A stretch of 49,704 nucleotides of DNA from a virus (taxonomy: Duplodnaviria; Heunggongvirae; Uroviricota; Caudoviricetes): IMG/VR virus record IMGVR_UViG_2703718837_000001. One strand, given 5' to 3'. Numbering within the stretch: position 1 is the first letter of the stretch; each line of letters opens with the position of its first letter. Under the pieces are notes generated by a model. That model saw nothing but the letters and a program-made list of their open reading frames with translations. It did no database searches and had not been told where the DNA came from. Positions 12,736 through 21,797 of the stretch are shown piece by piece. A program made the position numbers and the translations under genes.

Positions 12736-13437
12736 ATGATTGAACAGCAAAAGCAATGGGTGTTTACTGAATTAGTAAAAGACCCCAATAACATCGAGCA
12801 ACTAATTTCATACACGATTTACAAAGGTTTCAAAAATGAAATAGCCGATAATGCTCGTAAGATGGGCAAGACTGAAGATGAGATCAATGAGGAGTTAGCA
12901 AAATATCACAACTATTGCATTAGTTCTCAAAAGCAATTAGATGTTTTTAGAGATAAAGCTAAAAACACTCTTGACGCTTATATTTTCACCGCTAACCATA
13001 ACATGATGAAACGGTTTAATGCGGAAATTATTAAAATAAAAAACAACTATGATAAAGAACTTGAACTAGCGCAAAAAAAGTTAAAAATTGCCGAAAAAAA
13101 AGCATTAAATAAGCTGTCCAAAGGTGCGGTTCTCTACAGCCAAAAAATTAAAGAGCCAGAGCATCTCTGGGATAAAATCCTTGATTTATTGTGGAGACTT
13201 ATGAAGTTTCTGTTCTCTGGCGTACCTAAACTTTTTGCTACTGCATTTTCTGTTGGTCTAATGTTCACAATTTATACAGCTTTCGACGAAGATGCCACGA
13301 CAGGTTTGAGAAAAGGGCTATATAAAATTGTTGATATGACTGTACCAGGAAAAGATATTCACGAAACCACAGATAATATAACCAATAGTGGCACAGAAAA
13401 AATGTCATCTTCAAATTCCCAAGCGCAGCAAGGATAG
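12736..13437 (+). CDS. Hypothetical protein with coiled coil and C-terminal transmembrane helix, AT-rich accessory gene
   Basis: 233 aa; hydrophobic segment LFATAFSVGLMFTIYTAF; Lys-rich helical N-terminal part; no good RBS. Confidence 0.5.
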   Translation: MIEQQKQWVFTELVKDPNNIEQLISYTIYKGFKNEIADNARKMGKTEDEINEELAKYHNYCISSQKQLDVFRDKAKNTLDAYIFTANHNMMKRFNAEIIKIKNNYDKELELAQKKLKIAEKKALNKLSKGAVLYSQKIKEPEHLWDKILDLLWRLMKFLFSGVPKLFATAFSVGLMFTIYTAFDEDATTGLRKGLYKIVDMTVPGKDIHETTDNITNSGTEKMSSSNSQAQQG

Positions 13438-14168: not shown

Positions 14169-15104
14169 TTAGAATGGTACATTGTCATCCATCTCAAAGT
14201 CTGGGGGTGCAACAGATATTCGATGAATTTCATTTCTTTCCATATCCATCATTTGATCCTCCTGCTCCCCATCATCGTACCACGATGAAGTGTCTACCTC
14301 TAAAGCTTCAGATATGACTTCAAATGTTTCAGGAGAGTCTAAGTGAGAAGCCATGTGCAACGTGAACGGATAACTTTCTTCTAGGCTAACCCCATCATTC
14401 CTAGAACCATATTCTTGAGTAACATAGACAGTACCGGAAGCATATATATTGATGTACTCATCATCAATCGACGTGATTCCAAATTCTTCGACTTCAGTGT
14501 AATCTACATACGCATGATTCGCGATAGTCACTAGGTTTTCAGGCATAGAGCTTACCGCCGTGTCAATAACTGCATTTCTAATTTTATCTTCGAGAGTACG
14601 AATTAATTCATCTCTACAAATATGTATACCATTTAGTATTTCTGTAGCGATCTGCAGTATTTGTTTGGCCTTCAGGAAGAACTCTTGAGGTGATGGATGC
14701 ATATATTTCTCTGTTATATGCGTATATTTATTTAAGAAGAAATAAAGCTTAAGCATCTCATCTATTCTTTCATTCGACTCCTCCAGGAACTCTTCCCCCA
14801 AGTACGCATCTGAAATTTTAGCTTGAGAACAGTATTTTAAACGCTGTCTTCTAGATATTTCGTAATGTTCATGTTCTCTCTTATACCACGATGCTTGTAA
14901 TAATTTATCATTCGGAGATTTTTTCTCGATAATATGCTTTATTAGCTCGCGAATTGAAAATGCAAAGTTATGAAAACGTAATGGGTTGCCATGTGATGCA
15001 TAATTTCGCAAACAAGCTGTGAATAATTCTTTTTCAAAATCAGCTTCGAGGTGACTCATAAAATCATTCACAAAATCAAGAGATTGTAGTTTTTTAAGCT
15101 TCAT
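14169..15104 (-). CDS. Hypothetical protein with SSB-like acidic C-terminal tip (…PPDFEMDDNVPF)
   Basis: 311 aa; AT-rich; helical N-terminal part with no OB-fold signature; last residues resemble the E. coli SSB tail PPMDFDDDIPF. Confidence 0.6.
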   Translation of the reverse strand: MKLKKLQSLDFVNDFMSHLEADFEKELFTACLRNYASHGNPLRFHNFAFSIRELIKHIIEKKSPNDKLLQASWYKREHEHYEISRRQRLKYCSQAKISDAYLGEEFLEESNERIDEMLKLYFFLNKYTHITEKYMHPSPQEFFLKAKQILQIATEILNGIHICRDELIRTLEDKIRNAVIDTAVSSMPENLVTIANHAYVDYTEVEEFGITSIDDEYINIYASGTVYVTQEYGSRNDGVSLEESYPFTLHMASHLDSPETFEVISEALEVDTSSWYDDGEQEDQMMDMERNEIHRISVAPPDFEMDDNVPF

Positions 15105-15914: not shown

Positions 15915-17235
15915 GCTCCCCGCCCTGTCGGGCGAGGCTTCCCACTTCTCAGGCCACTACCGTCTGTGCGACGGATTTACGCTGGCCTCCATGGGCGGAG
16001 ACGACGAGTCCCGCCGCCTGTAGTTCCAGTATTCCTTTTTGCCGGATGTTGAGTGCCGCATTGATATCGCGGTCGTGCTCTGCTCCACATTCAGGGCATC
16101 GCCAGATGCGTTTATGAAGCGGCATTTCCGGCATTTTGTAACCACAACAATAGCAGGCTTTCGAACTGGCAAACCACTGGTCGAGTTTTACTAGGTGAAC
16201 GCCTTTTTCCGCTGCCTTGTACTCCAGCTTTGTGATGAAGCTATGCCAGCCTGCATCACCTATCGCTCTTGCCAGATTGTGGTTTTTCATCATGTTGGCT
16301 GTTTTCAGCGTCTCGACAATTACCGCTTGGTTTTCGTCAACAATTGCACGAGAGAGCTTGTGTTGAAAATCAGCACGGGCATTAGCCACCCGTTCGTGTA
16401 ACGCTGCCAGACGGATTGTGGCCTTTTTACGATTCGCGCTTCCCTTTTGCTTGCGGGATAAGGCTTTTTGTTTGCGTCGCAGATTACGGCTGGCATTGAT
16501 GAGATGGCGGGGATTTGCAATTTTTACCCCATCAGACTTGATGGCAAAGTGCGATAATCCCATATCTAGGCCAGTAACTGTTGATATCAACGTGGGTTTT
16601 GCCGGAGCTTCCATGCCATCATCACAGAGAATTGAAGCATAGTATTTCCCCGTTGCTGAACAGGTGATAGTGATGCTTTTCAGCTTTCCATGAAGTTCAC
16701 GGTGAAGGCGTGCTTCTATTAGGGACAGTTTTGGGATTTTGATGGCATTATCCAGCACCTTAATCCCGACACAGTGATAGCTCGATTGTTTTCCGTGTTT
16801 ACGTTTAAACGTCGGGAACCGCGCTTTCAGCTTCGGATTAAAAAAGTTGGAAAATGCCACATCAAGATTAATTACCGCCTGTTGCAACGCAATAGAATCA
16901 TATTCTTTAAGCCATCCATACCTGCGGGATTTCTTTGCCACTGCAAGCAGCGGTTTCAGATCGTTACGCGGACTTAAATTTACTCCATGTCGCTGGTAAG
17001 CATGTTTTTTGATGTGAAGAGCTTTGTTGTACGCAAAGCGCACTGCACCGAACTGGGCATTGAGGTACTCTGCCTGTTCTGGTGTCGGGTAAATGCGTAC
17101 TTTTGTTGCTCTTAACATAGTCACCGCTCATTGATACAGGCTTTTTATGCTAACACCGTAATGATTTTTTTAAAGCCCTGTTGGCTTTTCGCCTTATATA
17201 CCCGCCCGCATTAGGCGAGGGTTTACGGCGTTTTT
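15915..17235 (-). mobile_element. IS200/IS605-family element carrying tnpB only (boundaries approximate)
   Basis: Intact tnpB flanked by similar GC hairpins of the CCGCCC-loop-GGGCGAG type at 15925-15940 and 17196-17216; no tnpA. Confidence 0.55.
15949..17124 (-). CDS. tnpB: TnpB (OrfB) RuvC-like RNA-guided endonuclease homologue
   Basis: 391 aa; N-terminal MLRATKVRIYPTPEQAEYLNAQFGAVRFAYNKAL; RuvC-I D in TGLDMGL, RuvC-II E in IVETLK, zinc finger CYCCG...CPECG, RuvC-III D in HDRDINAALNI. Confidence 0.9.
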   Translation of the reverse strand: MTMLRATKVRIYPTPEQAEYLNAQFGAVRFAYNKALHIKKHAYQRHGVNLSPRNDLKPLLAVAKKSRRYGWLKEYDSIALQQAVINLDVAFSNFFNPKLKARFPTFKRKHGKQSSYHCVGIKVLDNAIKIPKLSLIEARLHRELHGKLKSITITCSATGKYYASILCDDGMEAPAKPTLISTVTGLDMGLSHFAIKSDGVKIANPRHLINASRNLRRKQKALSRKQKGSANRKKATIRLAALHERVANARADFQHKLSRAIVDENQAVIVETLKTANMMKNHNLARAIGDAGWHSFITKLEYKAAEKGVHLVKLDQWFASSKACYCCGYKMPEMPLHKRIWRCPECGAEHDRDINAALNIRQKGILELQAAGLVVSAHGGQRKSVAQTVVA

Positions 17236-17470: not shown

Positions 17471-17487
17471 ATTACACTAATAAATTT
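17471..17487 (+). promoter_or_regulatory. P1 C1-repressor operator-like site
   Basis: ATTACACTAATAAATTT (15/17 to consensus), between the IS left end and the 3' end of the methyltransferase gene. Confidence 0.4.
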
Positions 17488-17488
17488 A

Positions 17489-20400
17489 TTATAGCAATAT
17501 TGCTATAACGTCATGAGCAACACCACGAGTGTCTCCCTTACAAGACACAGAACGTCTGGCAAAAAGAGGTTCCACTCTGAAGCCACTGTCCTGATAAAGT
17601 TCTCTGATGTTTGGCGCGCCACTGTTAGTAATGAGAACCTTTGCACCTCGGCGATGAGCATCCGTCAACAGAGACACCAGGCGTTTTTGCTCTTCAAACT
17701 TAAAGTCATGACCGGAATAGTTCGTGAACCCCTCTGTATTGGGGAGCGGTTCATACGGCGGATCGCAAAAGATGACATCTCCTTCTCCGGCAGCTTCAAT
17801 CACCGCTGCAAAATCACCGCATACAAACTCAGACCGCCCTTCCGCACCGAGGAAGGCTTCCATCTCCTGTAATGGAAAATGCGTAGACTTATACTTCCCA
17901 TACCCGACATTGAACTCACCGGCCTGGTTGTAGCGCGTCAATCCATTAAAACAATGTCGGTTCAGGAACAAAAACGCCGCTGCGCGATGTAAATCATCAT
18001 AGACTTGTTTGTTAAACGCATTCCGTACTGCCAGGAATCCCTCCTGGGTGTTGTAGTCCAGGAAGAAACGATGTGCCAGAGTGATAAGTGAATGCGCCTC
18101 GCGTTGCAGAGTCTTGTAAAAGTTAATCAGGTCAGCATTCACATCATTTAGCAGATTTTCCTGATATCCGGCATTCATGAAGACAGCTCCGCCACCAACG
18201 AAAGGTTCAATCAGGCGCTTCCCTTCTGGCAAATAGCGAAAGATTTGTTCCAGAACACCAAATTTTCCACCAGCCCATTTGAATATGGGCCGTTCGAATT
18301 CTGCCGCTGGTTTAACCTTTCGCTCTTTTGTTTCACTCCCTTCTTTTTGCCGACATGCAGCCTTAGTAATCCGATCGCCAATCCAGCGCATTACTGGTAT
18401 TGCCATACTATTTCCGATCGCTTTGTAACGCGGTCCGTCAGCTGCAAGCATCGCGGCCTCTTCTTCGTTTAAATCAGGATAGTTATTGCGAAGGTATGCT
18501 AGTTCATCTGAAGAAACTTTTTTACGCTTTCCCGTAGGGATCAACGTATGCCAATCAGGAAAACCTTGCAGCCTTTCACATTCGACAGGGGTAAGACGGC
18601 GCATTCTATCGTCGCCGAGCAATACAATTGGTGCTTCATGGTTACATGTCAAAGTTGGTGCCGAATTATCGGTTTTTATCTCAGCCCCTCCTTGCCCATG
18701 TGCCATGGCAATTATGTTTGTATCATCGCAAGATCTGATAGCGATGTTTGAAGTATATCTGGTAGTTTCCTTCCCCTCGCCTCTGCTCGGCGCAATATCC
18801 CGGCGCTCGCCTTCGAACTCAAAAAGTACCGTTGCGGGATCGAGGTCTGTTCGAGCACTTGCGACAACAAACACGCGTCGGCGTCGTTGTGCCACTCCGA
18901 AGTATTGGGCATCAAGGATTCTCCAGGCCACCTTTCGCTGCGGTCCATAAATACAACCACACTGCGGCCACTTTGGAGCATGGCAACCGGTTTTGCCATC
19001 CCACCGCCAGAACGCGTTACTTTTTCCTGATTCAGGTCGATCACCTGGTTCAAATGGCGCATCTTCTCCAGCCAATCCGGCAAGGAAACATCCGAAGGCG
19101 TTATCTGCCGATGACAAGACCCCTGGGACATTTTCCCAGACGATAACGGCTGGTTTGAGAAATGACTCAGCCCGTTTGTCGTCAATTGCATTTGCAAGCT
19201 CCACATACTTTAAAGTTAGCGCGCCACGCTCATCATCAAGCCCACCACGTAATCCAGCGATACTGAATGCCTGACAGTTATGGACCACCGCACCATTGAG
19301 GATATAGGAATGATCACCTTCGACTTCTATGTTGTATACAGTATCTAGGCCTACCGATTTAAACTCTTTGACTGTTCGTAAAAGCATTCCATGAGCCAAT
19401 CTTGATTTACGTGACAATTTCTGCGGGCAGATTGTTACCTGATAATAATTCCGTTGATTTACCACGCGATCCTCAATCACTTTTTTGGGCTCAACTTCAA
19501 TAAAGCTGACCGAAGAAACATAACCACAAGTCTGTGACAACTCCGCAACGCCCCAAGCAAGCGCAGGACTAACACTATTAATTCTAAATCCCGCTTTACC
19601 ACTTGGTGTCCCATCAGTATCAAGATAGCCTTGTAAAAACACATGACGCAATGGATGCGACATCACCCATGCAGGGATACGCTTAGCATGGCTTAACTCG
19701 CCAAAATGTTCATTAAGCCAATTGGCATAACACGTATCATTCAAGGTTACTTTGATGCTCCCTCGGATTTCGCTTGCCACGGAAAATATGTTTTCTGGTA
19801 TGCGGCAATGAAACTTTCTCAATTTCTGGCAATTTATGCCAAAAACAACCGCCTTCTTAGATTTACCTCTCCATCTCCTAATATATCCATCGCCAACATA
19901 AGCGCCCGCAAGATACATAGCCTGTTCTTCAGACAAGAACCGAGAACAAATATCTGGAGATGCAATATTGAAATTAGTTAGAGCACACCATTGATATCCC
20001 GGCATATCACATGCTGCTCGCCATTCCGGTTCAGACAACAACTCTCTCTTAAAATATGTGCCATTTTTCCGGGTGTTTTGGGCTTTCCACCGAACCGCCA
20101 GGAAGGGATGGTCATTGGTTGTTCTTATACCTAAAGGCTGCCCAACGGCATTAAGTAACCCCGTATTAGCTATTTTTGAACCAACTCTTTTTACTTGTTG
20201 TAACCGCCCGAGATGACTGACTACGTAATCGCCAGGGCAAACATCTTCTATTGGTTTATAACCATTTTTACAAAGAACCATATGCCCCGCGGTAAAACAT
20301 GGTGTCCCTCCCACCAGCACATCAGGGGCTTCAATTTCTCCGGCCTGGACTTTTTGGGCGAGTTTTGTCATGTCGCCAAGGTTCGCGACATGGGGCCAGC

Positions 20401-20530
20401 GGTGCGCAAGAACGGCAGAGGGAAAAGGCTCGATTTCAGCAAACCACGCCGGACGCATACCCAACGGTTCCCATGCAATGCTCGCGGCTTCAATTCCACT
20501 GCAAACAGATCCATAGCACAGCTCTCTCAC
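17489..20530 (-). CDS. dmt: Bifunctional DNA methyltransferase: N-terminal C5-cytosine MTase (intein-interrupted) fused to C-terminal Dam-type N6-adenine MTase
   Basis: 1013 aa. C5 motifs: CSGIEAAS (I), GGTP/CQAFS (IV, split by intein), VWENVPG (VI), QRRRRVF (VIII). C-terminal about 270 aa match Dam: [21 protein letters not shown]. Confidence 0.9.
19277..20299 (-). other. Intein (Hint domain with LAGLIDADG homing-endonuclease core) inside the methyltransferase gene
   Basis: 341 codons from Cys78 ([28 protein letters not shown]) to ...ILNGAVVHN, followed by Cys(+1) of CQAFS; block B TTNDHPF; [11 protein letters not shown] and [10 protein letters not shown] motifs. Confidence 0.85.
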
Positions 20531-21432
20531 TGCTTAGCCTCTCCGCCCAGGGCATTTACCAGAGCATCAACCAGGCACGAAATTTCACTGGTTAACAGGA
20601 AGAAATCTGCGTCCAGTCGCTGCGCAACATCTTCACTATCAATATCAGAGTTCTGCTCAAGCAATTCATCCGCAAATTTGACGCTGGTAAGGCTGAAGTT
20701 ATGGTCCAGTGTAAATTTAATGCGGTTCTGCCAGTCGAGTGCCAACTTTGTGACGAGCTTGCCAGCTTCCAGGTGTGTGGAAATTTCATCGCTTCCCAAA
20801 TCCTGCTTTTTCACTCGGGCGATACCGCCATCCTCAAGCACTGCCTTAAGTTCTGCCGCATCCCCCATTTGAAATCCCTGTGGAGCACTACCATCACGTA
20901 CCCAGTCGGTCAGCGTTAATTCAATGGGATTTTCAACACTCAGGGGAACAACAGGAAGAGAACCCAGAGATTTACGCATAAGCGCGAGCATATCCTCTGC
21001 CTGCCGCGCGCTGGCATTGATATAGATACGTTTAGTTGAACCGTCGTAGATCGCCTGGATAACAGAAAACTTTGAAAAAGCCCGTGGCAGAAGAGAATGC
21101 AGAACTTCGTCTTTCAGGGAGTCCTTCTCTATTTTCTTCAGTTTACGCGCTTGTTCTTGCTCAAGTTTTTCAATTTTTTCTTGAATAGCTCGCTGGATAA
21201 CCGGCGGGGGAAGAATTTTTGTTTCGCGCTTTGCTTCAACAAGGATAAAGCCATTTCCATGCATAGCGATCACTTCGGAATTATCACCAAATGGCGATAC
21301 AAAACCGAACTTGGCCATATCCTGGCTACCGCATGGCGTGAATAGGATCATTTTATTTTTATCTTCTAAGTCGGTCAGATCCGCCTCACGAGAAACTTTA
21401 TAAATAGAAATGTTTTTCCAGTGCTTAAACAT
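20527..21432 (-). CDS. rdgC: RdgC-family recombination-associated protein homologue
   Basis: Colinear with E. coli RdgC ([62 protein letters not shown]...ALGGEAKQ); start placed at the second Met by alignment. Confidence 0.85.
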
Positions 21433-21709
21433 GTTGTAACCCTTGAATATCAACCACAGAAAGCTCGTCTTTGTAGAAGAAGGTCAGGTTATGGCACCCC
21501 CTCGTTTGAGCGTATGAGCTGGGACCAATTTCGTTCTTCCAGACAAATGGCTTCAGATCCGTACGGCGAAGCATAAAAACGCAATTTGTTCCGCTCTGAT
21601 TCCCAATGAGGCAAAAGCCTTCTTTCACCTTGATAGCCTGCAAGTTGTCGAGTTCACCGCTGGTTACACGGCTATCGAACTCCTTGCGGCTTATTAGCTC
21701 CATCTGCAT
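21425..21709 (-). CDS. Small hypothetical protein, first gene of the methyltransferase operon
   Basis: Start chosen at the ATG preceded by GGAG (7-nt spacer); the longer track ORF would begin inside the operator site. Confidence 0.45.
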
Positions 21710-21780: not shown

Positions 21781-21797
21781 ATATTTATTAGAGCAAT
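21781..21797 (-). promoter_or_regulatory. P1 C1-repressor operator-like site heading the minus-strand methyltransferase operon
   Basis: Reverse complement ATTGCTCTAATAAATAT (16/17 to consensus). Confidence 0.6.

What the first reader, a model, noticed from the sequence alone, without database searches (positions are those of the whole stretch)
19277..20299. Intein with homing-endonuclease core splitting the catalytic Pro-Cys motif of the cytosine methyltransferase
The translation reads ...VLVGGTP | CFTAGHMVL...TTNDHPF...[11 protein letters not shown]...[10 protein letters not shown]...ILNGAVVHN | CQAFSIAGL.... Removing the 341-aa insert restores the canonical C5-MTase motif IV (GGTPCQAFS). 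The insert starts with Cys, has a block-B TxxH, two LAGLIDADG-type motifs and ends His-Asn before a +1 Cys, which is the methyltransferase catalytic cysteine. Activity of the cytosine-methylating half should therefore depend on protein splicing.
Basis: partly seen in the sequence, partly recalled or inferred. Interest (0 to 1): 0.8.

Follow-up and report, generated by a model that had tools for sequence, protein, structure and literature searches.

The report
Homing intein in P1-family Dmt methyltransferase
A P1-type phage-plasmid carries a self-splicing, mobile protein insert (an intein with its own DNA-cutting domain) exactly at the catalytic site of its cytosine methyltransferase; this is a textbook kind of element, but it is unannotated, sits in about a quarter of P1-like plasmids and in a laboratory P1vir stock, and I found no report of it.

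Summary
Window 19277-20299(-) encodes a 341-aa in-frame insert in dmt (17489-20530(-), 1013 aa: C5-cytosine MTase half plus Dam half). It starts with Cys, ends with His-Asn and is followed by Cys. Phage P7 and reference P1 lack exactly these 1023 nt and read GGTP|CQAFS.

Pfam and NCBIfam profiles hit Hint, LAGLIDADG and the intein C-terminus. An AlphaFold2 model (pLDDT 96) matches the intein endonucleases PI-SceI, TliVMA and PI-PfuI (E 1e-16 to 1e-10).

About 45 full-length relatives (21-53% identity) keep C1, T61, H64 and N341 and an acidic residue at both LAGLIDADG positions (one Asn exception). Most sit at the same Pro|Cys site of phage C5-MTases.

The insert occurs in 133 of 498 dmt-bearing plasmids and 152 of 5426 complete E. 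coli genomes, and in P1vir stock OP279344, always at least 99% identical. It occurs with both target-recognition variants. Its synonymous diversity is 2-8 times lower than that of the flanking exteins, and its link to flanking variants fades within about 150 bp. This fits recent spread by homing.

Splicing and DNA cleavage are inferred, not shown; the -1 proline is a caveat. Verdict: a real canonical intein, a new member of a known kind, of moderate interest.

The parts
17489..20530 (-). dmt ORF (1013 aa, GTG start, includes stop). It encodes a bifunctional DNA methyltransferase precursor: C5-MTase half interrupted by the intein, then a Dam half.
   Evidence: ORF list. Pfam PF00145 and PF02086, NCBIfam TIGR00571 dam. 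97-98% nucleotide identity to dmt of P1-family phages.
20300..20530 (-). N-extein, aa 1-77. Carries C5-MTase motif I (SVCSGIEA, 20486-20509) and the first half of motif IV (GGTP). Pro77 is the -1 residue.
19277..20299 (-). Intein, 341 aa (precursor aa 78-418), predicted 38.3 kDa: a Hint splicing domain split by a LAGLIDADG endonuclease domain.
   Evidence: Translation. Exact presence/absence polymorphism. Profiles. AF2 pLDDT 96.3. Foldseek matches to PI-SceI, TliVMA, PhoVMA, PI-PfuI and PI-PkoII.
20273..20299 (-). Splicing block A (CFTAGHMVL). Cys1 (20297-20299) is the nucleophile for the N-S acyl shift.
   Evidence: C1 is invariant in 45/45 family members. Pfam Hint_2 covers intein residues 1-49.
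20102..20122 (-). Splicing block B (TTNDHPF) holding the TxxH motif, T61 and H64.
   Evidence: T61 and H64 are invariant in 45/45.
19883..19912 (-). First LAGLIDADG motif ([10 protein letters not shown]). D137 (precursor D214) is the predicted catalytic acidic residue.
   Evidence: Position 137 is Asp or Glu in 45/45; G132 and G138 are invariant. Helix 124-137 in the model.
19607..19636 (-). Second LAGLIDADG motif ([10 protein letters not shown]). D229 (precursor D306) is the predicted catalytic acidic residue.
   Evidence: D229 in 44/45; G224 invariant. Pfam LAGLIDADG_3 covers intein residues 221-284, E 5.9e-9. Helix 218-229 in the model.
19277..19339 (-). Splicing blocks F and G ([21 protein letters not shown]): block F Asp329, penultimate His340, terminal Asn341.
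   Evidence: NCBIfam intein_Cterm. N341 in 45/45, H340 in 38/45, D329 in 36/45. phmmer alignment to the C-terminus of the Spl DnaX mini-intein.
19274..19276 (-). The +1 Cys (precursor Cys419). It is the nucleophile for trans-thioesterification and also the catalytic cysteine of C5-MTase motif IV (P-C-Q).
   Evidence: +1 Cys in 44/44 relatives. The continuous PF00145 match through motif IV is restored on in-silico splicing.
18296..19273 (-). Rest of the C5-MTase C-extein: motif VI (WENVPG, 19121-19138), motif VIII (QRRRRVF, 18869-18892), a short P7-type variable target-recognition region, and motif X (GNSMAIPV, 18392-18415).
17492..18295 (-). Dam-type N6-adenine MTase domain (aa 746-1013; DPPY at 17753-17764). 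It is part of the same C-extein.
   Evidence: PF02086 E 2.3e-55; TIGR00571 E 2.3e-73.
21781..21797 (-). C1-repressor operator-like site upstream of the uhr-hrdC-dmt operon, corresponding to Op(dmt)/Op68 of P1. It implies that the intein precursor is made on de-repression or lytic growth.
   Evidence: One mismatch to ATTGCTCTAATAAATTT; 8 sites in the window against 0.39 expected. Operator position and role are taken from the P1 and P7 annotation.
17471..17498 (.). Pair of overlapping C1 operator-like sites at the 3' end of dmt, corresponding to the bivalent Op(ban) of P1 and P7.
   Evidence: annotation of P1 and P7.
20527..21453 (-). hrdC/rdgC homologue immediately upstream. Its stop overlaps the dmt start, so the two are in one operon.
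   Evidence: ORF list. Pfam RdgC E 4e-97.

Best explanation
The segment is a genuine class 1 intein carrying a two-motif (monomeric) LAGLIDADG homing endonuclease. It is inserted between Pro77 and the catalytic Cys of motif IV (P-C-Q) in the C5-cytosine methyltransferase half of the Dmt protein of a P1-family phage-plasmid.

Proposed working (inferred, not shown):
- dmt is transcribed with uhr and hrdC from a C1-repressed promoter and gives a 113-kDa precursor.
- Cys78 (intein C1) makes a thioester with Pro77.
- Cys419 (+1) attacks that thioester, giving a branched intermediate.
- Asn418 cyclises with the help of His417, releasing the 38-kDa intein.
- An S-N shift then yields a 74.6-kDa Dmt with an intact GGTPCQAFS motif. 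The C5-MTase half should be active only after splicing.
- The Dam half is C-terminal to the intein, in the same polypeptide. It is not interrupted and may work either way.

The freed intein is predicted to cut intein-less dmt alleles at the GGTACGCCT|TGTCAGGC junction when two P1-type genomes share a cell. Repair from the intein-bearing copy would then copy the intein plus roughly 100-160 bp of flank (homing).

What is shown: the anatomy, the fold, the exact presence/absence polymorphism, the conservation of all catalytic residues across a large family at this same site, and a population pattern that fits recent horizontal spread. What is not shown: splicing and cleavage themselves.
For: Anatomy and fold:
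- The frame is intact, with C1, TxxH, two LAGLIDADG motifs, HN and a +1 Cys.
- P7 and reference P1 lack exactly these 1023 nt. RCS47 and P1vir OP279344 carry them.
- Pfam Hint_2 and LAGLIDADG_3 and NCBIfam intein_Cterm all reach their cutoffs.
- AF2 with a 45-sequence alignment gives pLDDT 96.3 and pTM 0.92.
- Foldseek against the PDB puts PI-SceI at E 2.6e-16, TliVMA at 3.2e-16, PhoVMA at 1.3e-10, PI-PfuI at 5.7e-10 and PI-PkoII at 3.8e-9. The endonuclease domain alone matches I-DmoI and I-SceI.

Family:
- 76 database relatives were found. In the 45 aligned sequences (the query plus 44 full-length relatives, 21-53% identical to it), C1, T61, H64 and N341 are invariant, position 137 is Asp or Glu in all, D229 is kept in 44/45 and K206 in 44/45. 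All 44 relatives have a +1 Cys.
- 30 of the 44 relatives have Pro at -1, which is the P|C site. Most carry PF00145.
- An exhaustive search gives 193 representatives of 50%-identity clusters at E<=1e-30. Most have the match starting near residue 70-90. At least 84 of 147 show a P|C...N|CQ junction.

Population:
- The intein DNA is in 133 of 498 dmt-bearing plasmids, with 129 of them at least 99% identical. The whole gene is only 95-99% identical.
- It is in 152 of 5426 complete E. coli genomes, all at least 99% identical, and in 29 of the 110 loci examined: 27 of the 106 IMG/VR hits, plus RCS47 and P1vir among the four reference loci.
- All 25 fully sampled copies are intact.
- It occurs with both target-recognition variants: 15 short and 11 long against 23 and 37 without it.
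- Nucleotide diversity is 0.63% in the intein, 3.7% in the N-extein and 1.2% in the C-extein.
- Synonymous diversity is 0.015 in the intein against 0.126 and 0.030 in the exteins. pN/pS is 0.25 in the intein and 0.13-0.20 in the exteins of intein-bearing alleles.
- Association of flanking variants with intein presence is r2=1.0 at -1, 0.78 at -22, 0.59 at -48 and -104, and about 0 beyond -150. On the other side, variants are fixed to +66 and nearly fixed to +160.
- Intein GC is 42.8% (GC3 36.7%) against 56.7% and 48.8% in the exteins.
Against: - There is no experimental evidence for splicing or cleavage.
- The -1 residue is proline. Characterised inteins generally splice poorly or not at all after a -1 Pro (PMC6486613). 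This lineage must be specially adapted, or it splices slowly.
- All P1-family copies are at least 99% identical, so conservation within P1 says little by itself.
- General homologous recombination among P1-like plasmids could spread the insert without an active endonuclease.
- The C5 activity of Dmt is itself only annotated as 'perhaps' in the P1 and P7 records. dmt is non-essential in Dam+ hosts.
- IS-truncated copies exist.
- Pfam Intein_splicing stays below its cutoff (22 against 35.8 bits), and Hint_2 only just passes.
Confidence: 0.82

Rival explanations
1. The intein splices, but its endonuclease is inactive or nearly so. Its patchy distribution then reflects one old insertion, shuffled among P1-like plasmids by ordinary homologous recombination and hitch-hiking, and not by site-specific homing.
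For: - P1-like dmt alleles are visibly mosaic: two target-recognition variants and several flank haplotypes in all combinations.
- One relative has Asn in place of the second catalytic Asp, so endonuclease decay does occur in the family.
- Frequency is intermediate (about 27%) and not near fixation.
- Intein-less alleles with an intein-like flank (GGAACACCT|...GGATTA) are common, 23 loci.
Against: - Both catalytic Asp residues and K206 are intact here and in nearly all relatives.
- pN/pS across the whole intein, including the endonuclease domain, is 0.25.
- Intein synonymous diversity is 2-8 times lower than that of the flanking exteins, and linkage fades within about 150 bp. That is the size of a co-conversion tract, not of typical recombination blocks.
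- One relative (P0032) has an intein 46% identical to this one but exteins only 28-35% identical, which suggests the lineage can move between divergent MTases.
Confidence: 0.2
2. The insert is a dead or non-splicing intein remnant, in effect a tolerated domain insertion. Carriers would have lost C5-methylation but kept Dam activity from the uninterrupted C-terminal half, and that is all P1 needs.
For: - A -1 Pro is unfavourable for splicing in studied inteins.
- dmt is dispensable in Dam+ hosts, and only its Dam activity has a documented role, in pac-site methylation.
- The C5 function is annotated only as 'perhaps'.
- In Mannheimia the homologous MTase is frameshifted just after an intact intein.
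Against: - All splice-site residues are intact in 25/25 sampled copies and invariant across 21-53%-identical relatives.
- The C5-MTase exteins of intein-bearing alleles remain under purifying selection, with pN/pS 0.13-0.20, the same as intein-less alleles.
- A lineage of at least 84 clusters at the same P|C site could hardly persist if a -1 Pro blocked splicing.
Confidence: 0.07
3. The intein acts as a conditional switch. Splicing, and so C5-methylation, would be gated by redox state, temperature or DNA binding. This would delay or limit cytosine methylation relative to Dam methylation during P1 development.
For: - The +1 nucleophile is the MTase catalytic Cys.
- The intein has 11 cysteines, including C1, C10 and C21, which could form regulatory disulfides.
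- The slow-splicing -1 Pro could make the reaction rate-limiting.
- Conditional splicing is documented for other inteins in the titles and abstracts listed (RadA, PMC4513877 and PMC5790916; DnaB, PMC6195587).
Against: - Nothing in the sequence demonstrates regulation.
- C10 and C21 are not conserved in relatives.
- About three quarters of P1-like plasmids do without the intein, so no essential regulatory role is implied.
Confidence: 0.1

Closest known systems
PI-SceI (Sce VMA1 intein) and the archaeal VMA inteins TliVMA and PhoVMA: class 1 inteins with an embedded LAGLIDADG homing endonuclease
   Same: Same two-part architecture: a Hint splicing domain interrupted by a double-motif LAGLIDADG endonuclease. 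Same Cys1, TxxH, His-Asn and +1 Cys. These are the best structural matches (E 2.6e-16 to 1.3e-10, TM 0.55-0.63). Like them, it is inserted at a catalytic motif of the host enzyme.
   Different: Only 12-17% sequence identity. The insert is shorter, 341 aa against 454 aa for PI-SceI, so it lacks part of the extra DNA-recognition region. The host protein is a DNA methyltransferase of a phage-plasmid. The native -1 residue is Pro.
Inteins in phage DNA methyltransferases: N6/N4 methylases of mycobacteriophages (Kelley et al. 2016, PMC5050341) and the C-5 methylase inteins listed for actinobacteriophages (bioRxiv 10.1101/2025.01.02.630785)
   Same: The same kind of host gene, a phage DNA methylase. 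These are class 1 inteins with LAGLIDADG endonucleases and a patchy distribution among related phages. Actinobacterial relatives of the present intein, at the SPE|C...N|CTNHS site, were recovered here at 28-30% identity.
   Different: Those surveys cover actinobacteriophages only. The text I could read does not give the C-5 insertion site. The present copy is in an enterobacterial Punavirus-type phage-plasmid and in a bifunctional C5+Dam protein.
Unnamed family of motif-IV (P|C) inteins in prophage C5-MTases found here, for example in a Mannheimia haemolytica prophage (P0011) and in metagenomic Dmt-like proteins (P0078, P0079)
   Same: Identical insertion point, length of 322-371 aa among the PF00145-hosted members, and all catalytic residues. 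Intein identity to the window is 45-57%. The genes lie in prophage early regions with RecT, repressor and integrase genes.
   Different: No closer than 57% identity to the P1-family copy, so no recent donor was found. Some are decaying: the Mannheimia C-extein is frameshifted, and Rodentibacter P0024 begins within the last roughly 50 intein residues.
Intein-less Dmt/Dam of phage P7 (YP_009914544) and reference P1 (YP_006537)
   Same: The exteins are 97% (P7) and about 89% (P1) identical to the window protein. The operon and C1 operators are the same.
   Different: They lack the 341-aa insert and read GGTP|CQAFS. They differ at synonymous sites next to the junction: ACG CCT against ACA CCA before it, and GCG GGC against GCT/GCG GGA after it.

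Membership tests
Class 1 intein (Hint/HINT splicing domain) | Cys, Ser or Thr at intein position 1 | tested here: met
   Cys1 (TGT at 20297-20299, minus strand); invariant in 45/45 aligned sequences.
Class 1 intein (Hint/HINT splicing domain) | Block B TxxH motif | tested here: met
   T61-N-D-H64; both residues invariant in 45/45.
Class 1 intein (Hint/HINT splicing domain) | C-terminal (His)-Asn followed by a +1 Cys, Ser or Thr on the C-extein | tested here: met
   The insert ends ...VVHN|C. N341 in 45/45, H340 in 38/45, +1 Cys in 44/44. NCBIfam intein_Cterm scores 25.9-28.8 bits against a 15.6 cutoff.
Class 1 intein (Hint/HINT splicing domain) | In-frame insertion at a conserved site of a host protein whose homologues exist without it | tested here: met
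   P7 and reference P1 lack exactly the 341 aa or 1023 nt. 365 of 498 plasmid dmt genes lack it.
Class 1 intein (Hint/HINT splicing domain) | Hint fold | tested here: met
   Pfam Hint_2 scores 28.5 bits against a 28.4 cutoff, which is marginal. The AF2 model has pLDDT 96.3. Foldseek matches full-length PI-SceI, TliVMA and PI-PfuI at E 1e-16 to 1e-10 and a splicing branched-intermediate structure, 4oz6.
Class 1 intein (Hint/HINT splicing domain) | Autocatalytic protein splicing that yields ligated exteins and free intein | not testable with these tools
   This needs expression with western blot or mass spectrometry. The predicted products are 113.0 kDa going to 74.6 and 38.3 kDa. The -1 Pro is a caveat.
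LAGLIDADG homing endonuclease (monomeric, two-motif) | Two LAGLIDADG motifs, each ending in a catalytic acidic residue | tested here: met
   LAGAYVGD137G and LQGYLDTD229G. Position 137 is Asp or Glu in 45/45 and D229 is kept in 44/45.
LAGLIDADG homing endonuclease (monomeric, two-motif) | Pseudo-dimeric alpha-beta-beta-alpha-beta-beta-alpha fold | tested here: met
   Pfam LAGLIDADG_3 E 5.9e-9. The secondary-structure order in the model fits. Foldseek matches I-DmoI (E 3.5e-5, TMt 0.6) and I-SceI.
LAGLIDADG homing endonuclease (monomeric, two-motif) | Site-specific cleavage of the intein-less allele, followed by homing | not testable with these tools
   Only indirect population evidence is available: low intein diversity, presence on several extein backgrounds, and short-range linkage to flanks. 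This is compatible with homing but does not prove it.
C5-cytosine DNA methyltransferase (PF00145), as the host protein | Conserved motifs I, IV (PCQ), VI (ENV), VIII (QRR) and X (GNS) in order | tested here: met
   All are present once the insert is removed. PF00145 scores E 7e-38 with a continuous match across motif IV.
C5-cytosine DNA methyltransferase (PF00145), as the host protein | 5mC-forming activity | not testable with these tools
   The P1 and P7 records say only 'perhaps C5 cytosine'. Purifying selection on this half, pN/pS about 0.13-0.2, argues that it is functional.
Class 3 intein (considered) | No position-1 nucleophile; a WCT triplet with an obligate block F Cys | tested here: not met
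   Cys1 is present and invariant. Block F reads [12 protein letters not shown] and has no Cys.
Bacterial intein-like (BIL) domain (considered) | A Hint domain without an endonuclease, located in variable regions of non-conserved proteins, usually lacking a +1 nucleophile | tested here: not met
   The only match to a BIL structure is not significant (2lwy, E 0.9). An endonuclease domain is present, the +1 Cys is present, and the insertion is at a conserved catalytic motif.

The most novel reading that the evidence does not exclude
This could be a still-active homing intein now spreading through the P1-type phage-plasmids of Escherichia, Salmonella and Shigella, and present in the laboratory workhorse P1vir. 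It belongs to a large uncharacterised lineage that natively splices after a -1 proline and uses the methyltransferase's own catalytic cysteine as the +1 nucleophile. If splicing after proline is slow or redox-gated, the intein would make cytosine-5 methylation of P1 DNA conditional while Dam methylation proceeds. The lineage would also supply a natural proline-tolerant intein for protein engineering.
Probability: 0.15. Interest if true: 0.65.

Novelty: new member of a known kind. Interest (0 to 1): 0.45.

Why it matters
- **Annotation.** A mobile intein sits unannotated in P1, one of the best-studied phages. In public records the gene is called only 'Dmt' or 'Dam family methyltransferase'.
- **Tractable system.** It is present in a sequenced P1vir stock and absent from the P1 and P7 reference genomes. 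Natural intein-bearing and intein-less partners therefore already exist for homing, co-conversion and splicing experiments in E. coli.
- **E. coli as an intein host.** E. coli is generally treated as an intein-free host (my own knowledge). Yet 2.8% of complete E. coli genomes carry this intein through P1-like plasmids.
- **Chemistry.** The family's obligatory -1 proline conflicts with the usual rule that inteins do not splice after proline. A working member would be of practical use.
- **Caveat for users.** Work on the anti-restriction or epigenetic roles of Dmt should note that about a quarter of alleles need a post-translational step to make the C5 active site.

Tried and rejected
- **Single-sequence AlphaFold2.** It gave an unusable model (pLDDT 32.5), so I redid it with a 45-sequence alignment.
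- **Direct PDB sequence search.** It gave only weak hits: Spl DnaX mini-intein at E 0.0015 and PI-PkoII at E 0.025. These are too weak alone, so fold comparison was needed.
- **Literature.** Searches combining intein with P1, Dmt, P1-like, phage-plasmid, LAGLIDADG or cytosine methylase found no report of this intein. Hits that mentioned both terms were unrelated. Three searches failed on term syntax.
- **Class 3 intein and BIL domain.** Both were considered and rejected (see the membership tests).
- **Three apparent odd N-junctions.** Three intein-bearing IMG/VR loci seemed to have unusual N-junctions. They were an artefact of loci cut short by the stored stretch.
- **Internal late promoter.** The predicted LPdam2 annotated in P7 could let the Dam half be expressed separately. 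I looked at it, but the sequence and a consensus scan gave nothing I could evaluate, so it is left as an annotation-level lead.
- **Possible pAgo partner.** I looked for a partner next to the pPIWI-associated nuclease homologue noticed downstream. No PIWI domain was found in the neighbouring ORFs.
- **Recent donor.** I looked for a recent donor of the intein. The closest copy outside the P1 family is only 57% identical.
Full report
**1. What is in the sequence.**
The finding's coordinates are exact, but the coding strand is the minus strand. The plus-strand translation of 19277-20299 is full of stops. The minus strand gives an open 341-codon frame: CFTAGHMVL...TTNDHPF...[10 protein letters not shown]...[10 protein letters not shown]...[21 protein letters not shown].

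The segment lies in a single ORF, 17489..20530(-), of 1013 aa. The ORF reads ...VLVGGTP before the segment and CQAFSIAGL... after it. Pfam and NCBIfam place a C5-cytosine methylase (PF00145) in the N-terminal two thirds and a Dam-type N6-adenine methylase (PF02086, TIGR00571) in the C-terminal third. Hint_2, LAGLIDADG_3 and intein_Cterm hit inside the segment.

**2. What the gene is.**
The gene is dmt of a P1-family (Punavirus-type) phage-plasmid. It is 97-98.6% identical over its whole length to dmt of phage RCS47, a P1vir stock (OP279344) and many Escherichia and Salmonella plasmids.

The neighbours fit. The upstream gene is the RdgC homologue hrdC. C1-repressor operator-like sites lie at 21781-21797, the position of Op(dmt), and at 17471-17498, the position of the Op(ban) pair. 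Eight such sites occur in the window against 0.39 expected by chance (roles taken from the P1 and P7 annotation).

**3. The insert is a discrete, optional element.**
Aligning the window protein with four reference alleles shows that P7 and reference P1 lack exactly the 341 residues and read GGTP|CQAFS (WGTP|CQAFS in P1). RCS47 and P1vir OP279344 carry the insert (DNA junctions).

A second, independent polymorphism lies in the target-recognition region, with a short P7-type and an 82-aa-longer P1-type form. Across the four reference alleles and the window, all four combinations occur. Among IMG/VR loci the insert occurs with both types: 15 short and 11 long with it, 23 short and 37 long without it.

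Removing the insert in silico gives one continuous PF00145 match through motif IV and improves the E-value from 2.4e-30 to 7e-38.

**4. It has the anatomy and fold of an intein with a LAGLIDADG endonuclease.**
The sequence landmarks are:
- Cys1
- block B T61-x-x-H64
- LAGLIDADG motifs ending in D137 and D229
- block F Asp329
- His340-Asn341
- the +1 Cys, which is the catalytic Cys of motif IV

A single-sequence AlphaFold2 run failed (pLDDT 32.5). With a 45-sequence alignment the model reached pLDDT 96.3 and pTM 0.92. Foldseek against the PDB ranks solved intein endonucleases first:

| Structure | E-value |
|---|---|
| PI-SceI | 2.6e-16 |
| TliVMA | 3.2e-16 |
| PhoVMA | 1.3e-10 |
| PI-PfuI | 5.7e-10 |
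| PI-PkoII | 3.8e-9 |

The free-standing LAGLIDADG enzymes I-DmoI and I-SceI match the central domain. Sequence-only comparison with the PDB was weak.

**5. It belongs to a large lineage tied to this exact site.**
Two homology searches recovered 76 relatives, most with PF00145 exteins. In the 45 aligned sequences (the query plus 44 full-length relatives, 21-53% identical to it):
- C1, T61, H64 and N341 are invariant.
- Position 137 is always Asp or Glu.
- D229 and K206 are each kept in 44/45.
- All 44 relatives have a +1 Cys.
- The -1 residue is Pro in 30 of them (the P|C site) and Glu in the actinobacterial SPE|C...N|CTNHS subgroup.
- A side branch sits before the first Cys of a CxxC in HNH/McrA-like proteins.

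An exhaustive search of 1.84 billion cluster representatives gives 193 hits at E<=1e-30. Most begin near residue 70-90 of the protein, and at least 84 of 147 inspected show a P|C...N|CQ junction.

Two relatives I placed in their genomes lie in prophage early regions with RecT, repressor, AntA and integrase genes. In Mannheimia haemolytica the MTase is frameshifted just after an intact intein.

Intein and extein identities broadly track each other. One exception (P0032) suggests transfer to a divergent MTase. The nearest relatives outside the P1 family are only 55-57% identical, including a Dmt-like C5+Dam protein, P0078. No recent donor was found.

**6. The population pattern in P1-like elements.**

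*Frequency.* The intein DNA alone is found in:
- 133 of the 498 plasmid records that carry dmt (27%), from Escherichia, Salmonella and Shigella
- 152 of 5426 complete E. coli genomes
- 29 of the 110 loci examined: 27 of the 106 IMG/VR hits sharing the 20-mer after the junction, plus RCS47 and P1vir among the four reference loci

*Identity.* Identity is at least 99% in 129 of 133 plasmid records and in all 153 E. coli records. The whole gene is only 95-99% identical. All 25 fully sampled copies are intact.

*Diversity among intein-bearing alleles:*

| Region | Nucleotide diversity | Synonymous diversity | pN/pS |
|---|---|---|---|
| Intein | 0.63% | 0.015 | 0.25 |
| N-extein | 3.7% | 0.126 | 0.13 |
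| C-extein | 1.2% | 0.030 | 0.20 |

*Linkage to flanks.* Flanking variants associate with intein presence in a steep gradient:
- r2 is 1.0 at -1, where CCA occurs in all carriers and CCT in all non-carriers.
- r2 is 0.78 at -22 and 0.59 at -48 and -104.
- r2 is about 0 beyond -150.
- On the C side, variants are fixed to +66 and nearly fixed to +160.

*Composition.* The intein is poorer in GC (42.8%, GC3 36.7%) than either extein (56.7% and 48.8%).

*Reading.* These data point to a compositionally foreign element that entered P1-type dmt once and recently. It has since been copied into diverged alleles with short co-conversion tracts, while both it and the host MTase stayed under purifying selection. 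That is what homing predicts, but ordinary recombination is not excluded.

**7. How it most likely works.**

*Shown:* anatomy, fold, site, optionality, conservation and population pattern.

*Inferred from the established class 1 intein mechanism* (reviewed in PMC4031507, listed):
- An N-S acyl shift at Cys78.
- Trans-thioesterification by Cys419.
- Asn418 cyclisation.
- An S-N shift that restores Pro77-Cys419.

This turns a 113.0-kDa precursor into 74.6-kDa Dmt plus a 38.3-kDa intein. The active-site Cys is the +1 nucleophile, and motif IV is split by a 341-aa domain, so the C5-MTase half should be inactive until it is spliced. The Dam half is uninterrupted and may function regardless.

The operon is C1-repressed in P1 and P7. 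The precursor and endonuclease should therefore appear on induction or infection, when several phage genomes can meet in one cell.

**8. Caveats.**
- Nothing here tests splicing or cleavage.
- The native -1 proline is notable. Characterised inteins generally fail or are slow with Pro at -1 (PMC6486613). The persistence of a large lineage at a P|C site argues that these inteins cope, but kinetics could be unusual.
- dmt is dispensable in Dam+ hosts, and only its Dam role is documented.
- The C5 activity is annotated only as 'perhaps'.
- Some copies are truncated by IS elements, and one E. coli copy is 1 nt short and split into two annotated genes.

**9. Comparison with what is known, and novelty.**
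Inteins with LAGLIDADG endonucleases at catalytic motifs are textbook. Inteins in phage DNA methylases have been reported: N6/N4 methylases in mycobacteriophages (PMC5050341), and C-5 methylases listed for actinobacteriophages (bioRxiv 10.1101/2025.01.02.630785).

I found no paper mentioning an intein in P1 Dmt or in P1-like plasmids. Public records label the gene only as Dmt or a Dam-family methyltransferase. It is therefore a new member of a known kind.

The points of interest are:
- its presence in a laboratory P1vir stock alongside intein-less reference strains
- its intermediate frequency in natural E. coli plasmids
- the obligatory -1 proline of the lineage

Noticed in passing
window 14169-15104 (-): A 311-aa ORF matches both 'predicted pPIWI-associating nuclease' domains (pP_pnuc_1 at E 1.8e-34, pP_pnuc_2 at E 2.1e-33). 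This may be defence-related cargo in the variable region downstream of dmt. No PIWI/Argonaute domain was found in the neighbouring ORFs at 7906-13437.
   Followed up: partly
window 15949-17124 (-): An IS200/IS605-family OrfB/TnpB gene of 391 aa (HTH_OrfB_IS605, OrfB_IS605 and Cas12f1-like TNB domains). It is about 82% identical in nucleotides to ISEc46 of phage RCS47 and lies about 365 bp downstream of dmt.
   Followed up: partly
window 1-49704, expected near 16700-16900: ARAGORN finds no tRNA gene anywhere in the window. P1, P7, RCS47 and P1vir all carry tRNA-Asn and tRNA-Thr about 700 bp downstream of dmt. Only about 15% of 13500-17488 matches P1-family phages, so this stretch has been remodelled, with the IS605-family element inserted.
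   Followed up: partly
L004 (OP279344, P1vir) 1501-4542; L002 (NC_005856, reference P1) 1501-3765: Laboratory P1 strains differ at this locus. A sequenced P1vir stock carries the intein and the short target-recognition region. The reference P1 c1-100 genome lacks the intein, has the long target-recognition region, and has Trp in place of the first Gly of GGTPCQ.
   Followed up: yes
dmt C-extein, window about 18420-18800 (precursor aa about 577-703): There are two sharply different target-recognition-region variants of the C5-MTase half: a short P7-type, as in the window, and an 82-aa-longer P1-type. They presumably have different cytosine target specificities and assort independently of the intein.
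   Followed up: partly
L111 (NZ_CP057105) about 1-1500; L112 (NZ_CP070875) 2501-3329: Two E. fergusonii P1-like plasmids have the intein truncated near its 5' end by insertion sequences. An IS91-family transposase lies next to intein nt 20, and an IS1 follows intein nt 76.
   Followed up: partly
L113/L114 (Mannheimia haemolytica chromosome) 6001-8321: A prophage C5-MTase carries an intact homologous intein (about 47% identity), but the C-extein is frameshifted about 20 residues after the junction. An HNH_3/I-HmuI-like endonuclease gene follows. The same protein sequence is indexed in 859 collection blocks. This looks like an intein outliving its host gene.
   Followed up: partly
L010, L044, L045, L059, L061, L062 (IMG/VR): Non-P1 C5-MTase genes with clearly divergent flanks share the identical 20-mer TGTCAGGCATTCAGTATCGC immediately after the insertion point, and none carries the intein. 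The DNA of the C-side half of the presumed homing site is therefore conserved beyond P1, so these are potential further targets.
   Followed up: no
intein-less IMG/VR loci such as L006, L012, L013: About 23 intein-less alleles carry the flank haplotype typical of intein-bearing alleles (GGA ACA ... GGA TTA) but have CCT, not CCA, at the -1 codon. They could be the ancestral haplotype the intein first entered, products of intein loss, or cleavage-resistant sites. This is unresolved.
   Followed up: partly
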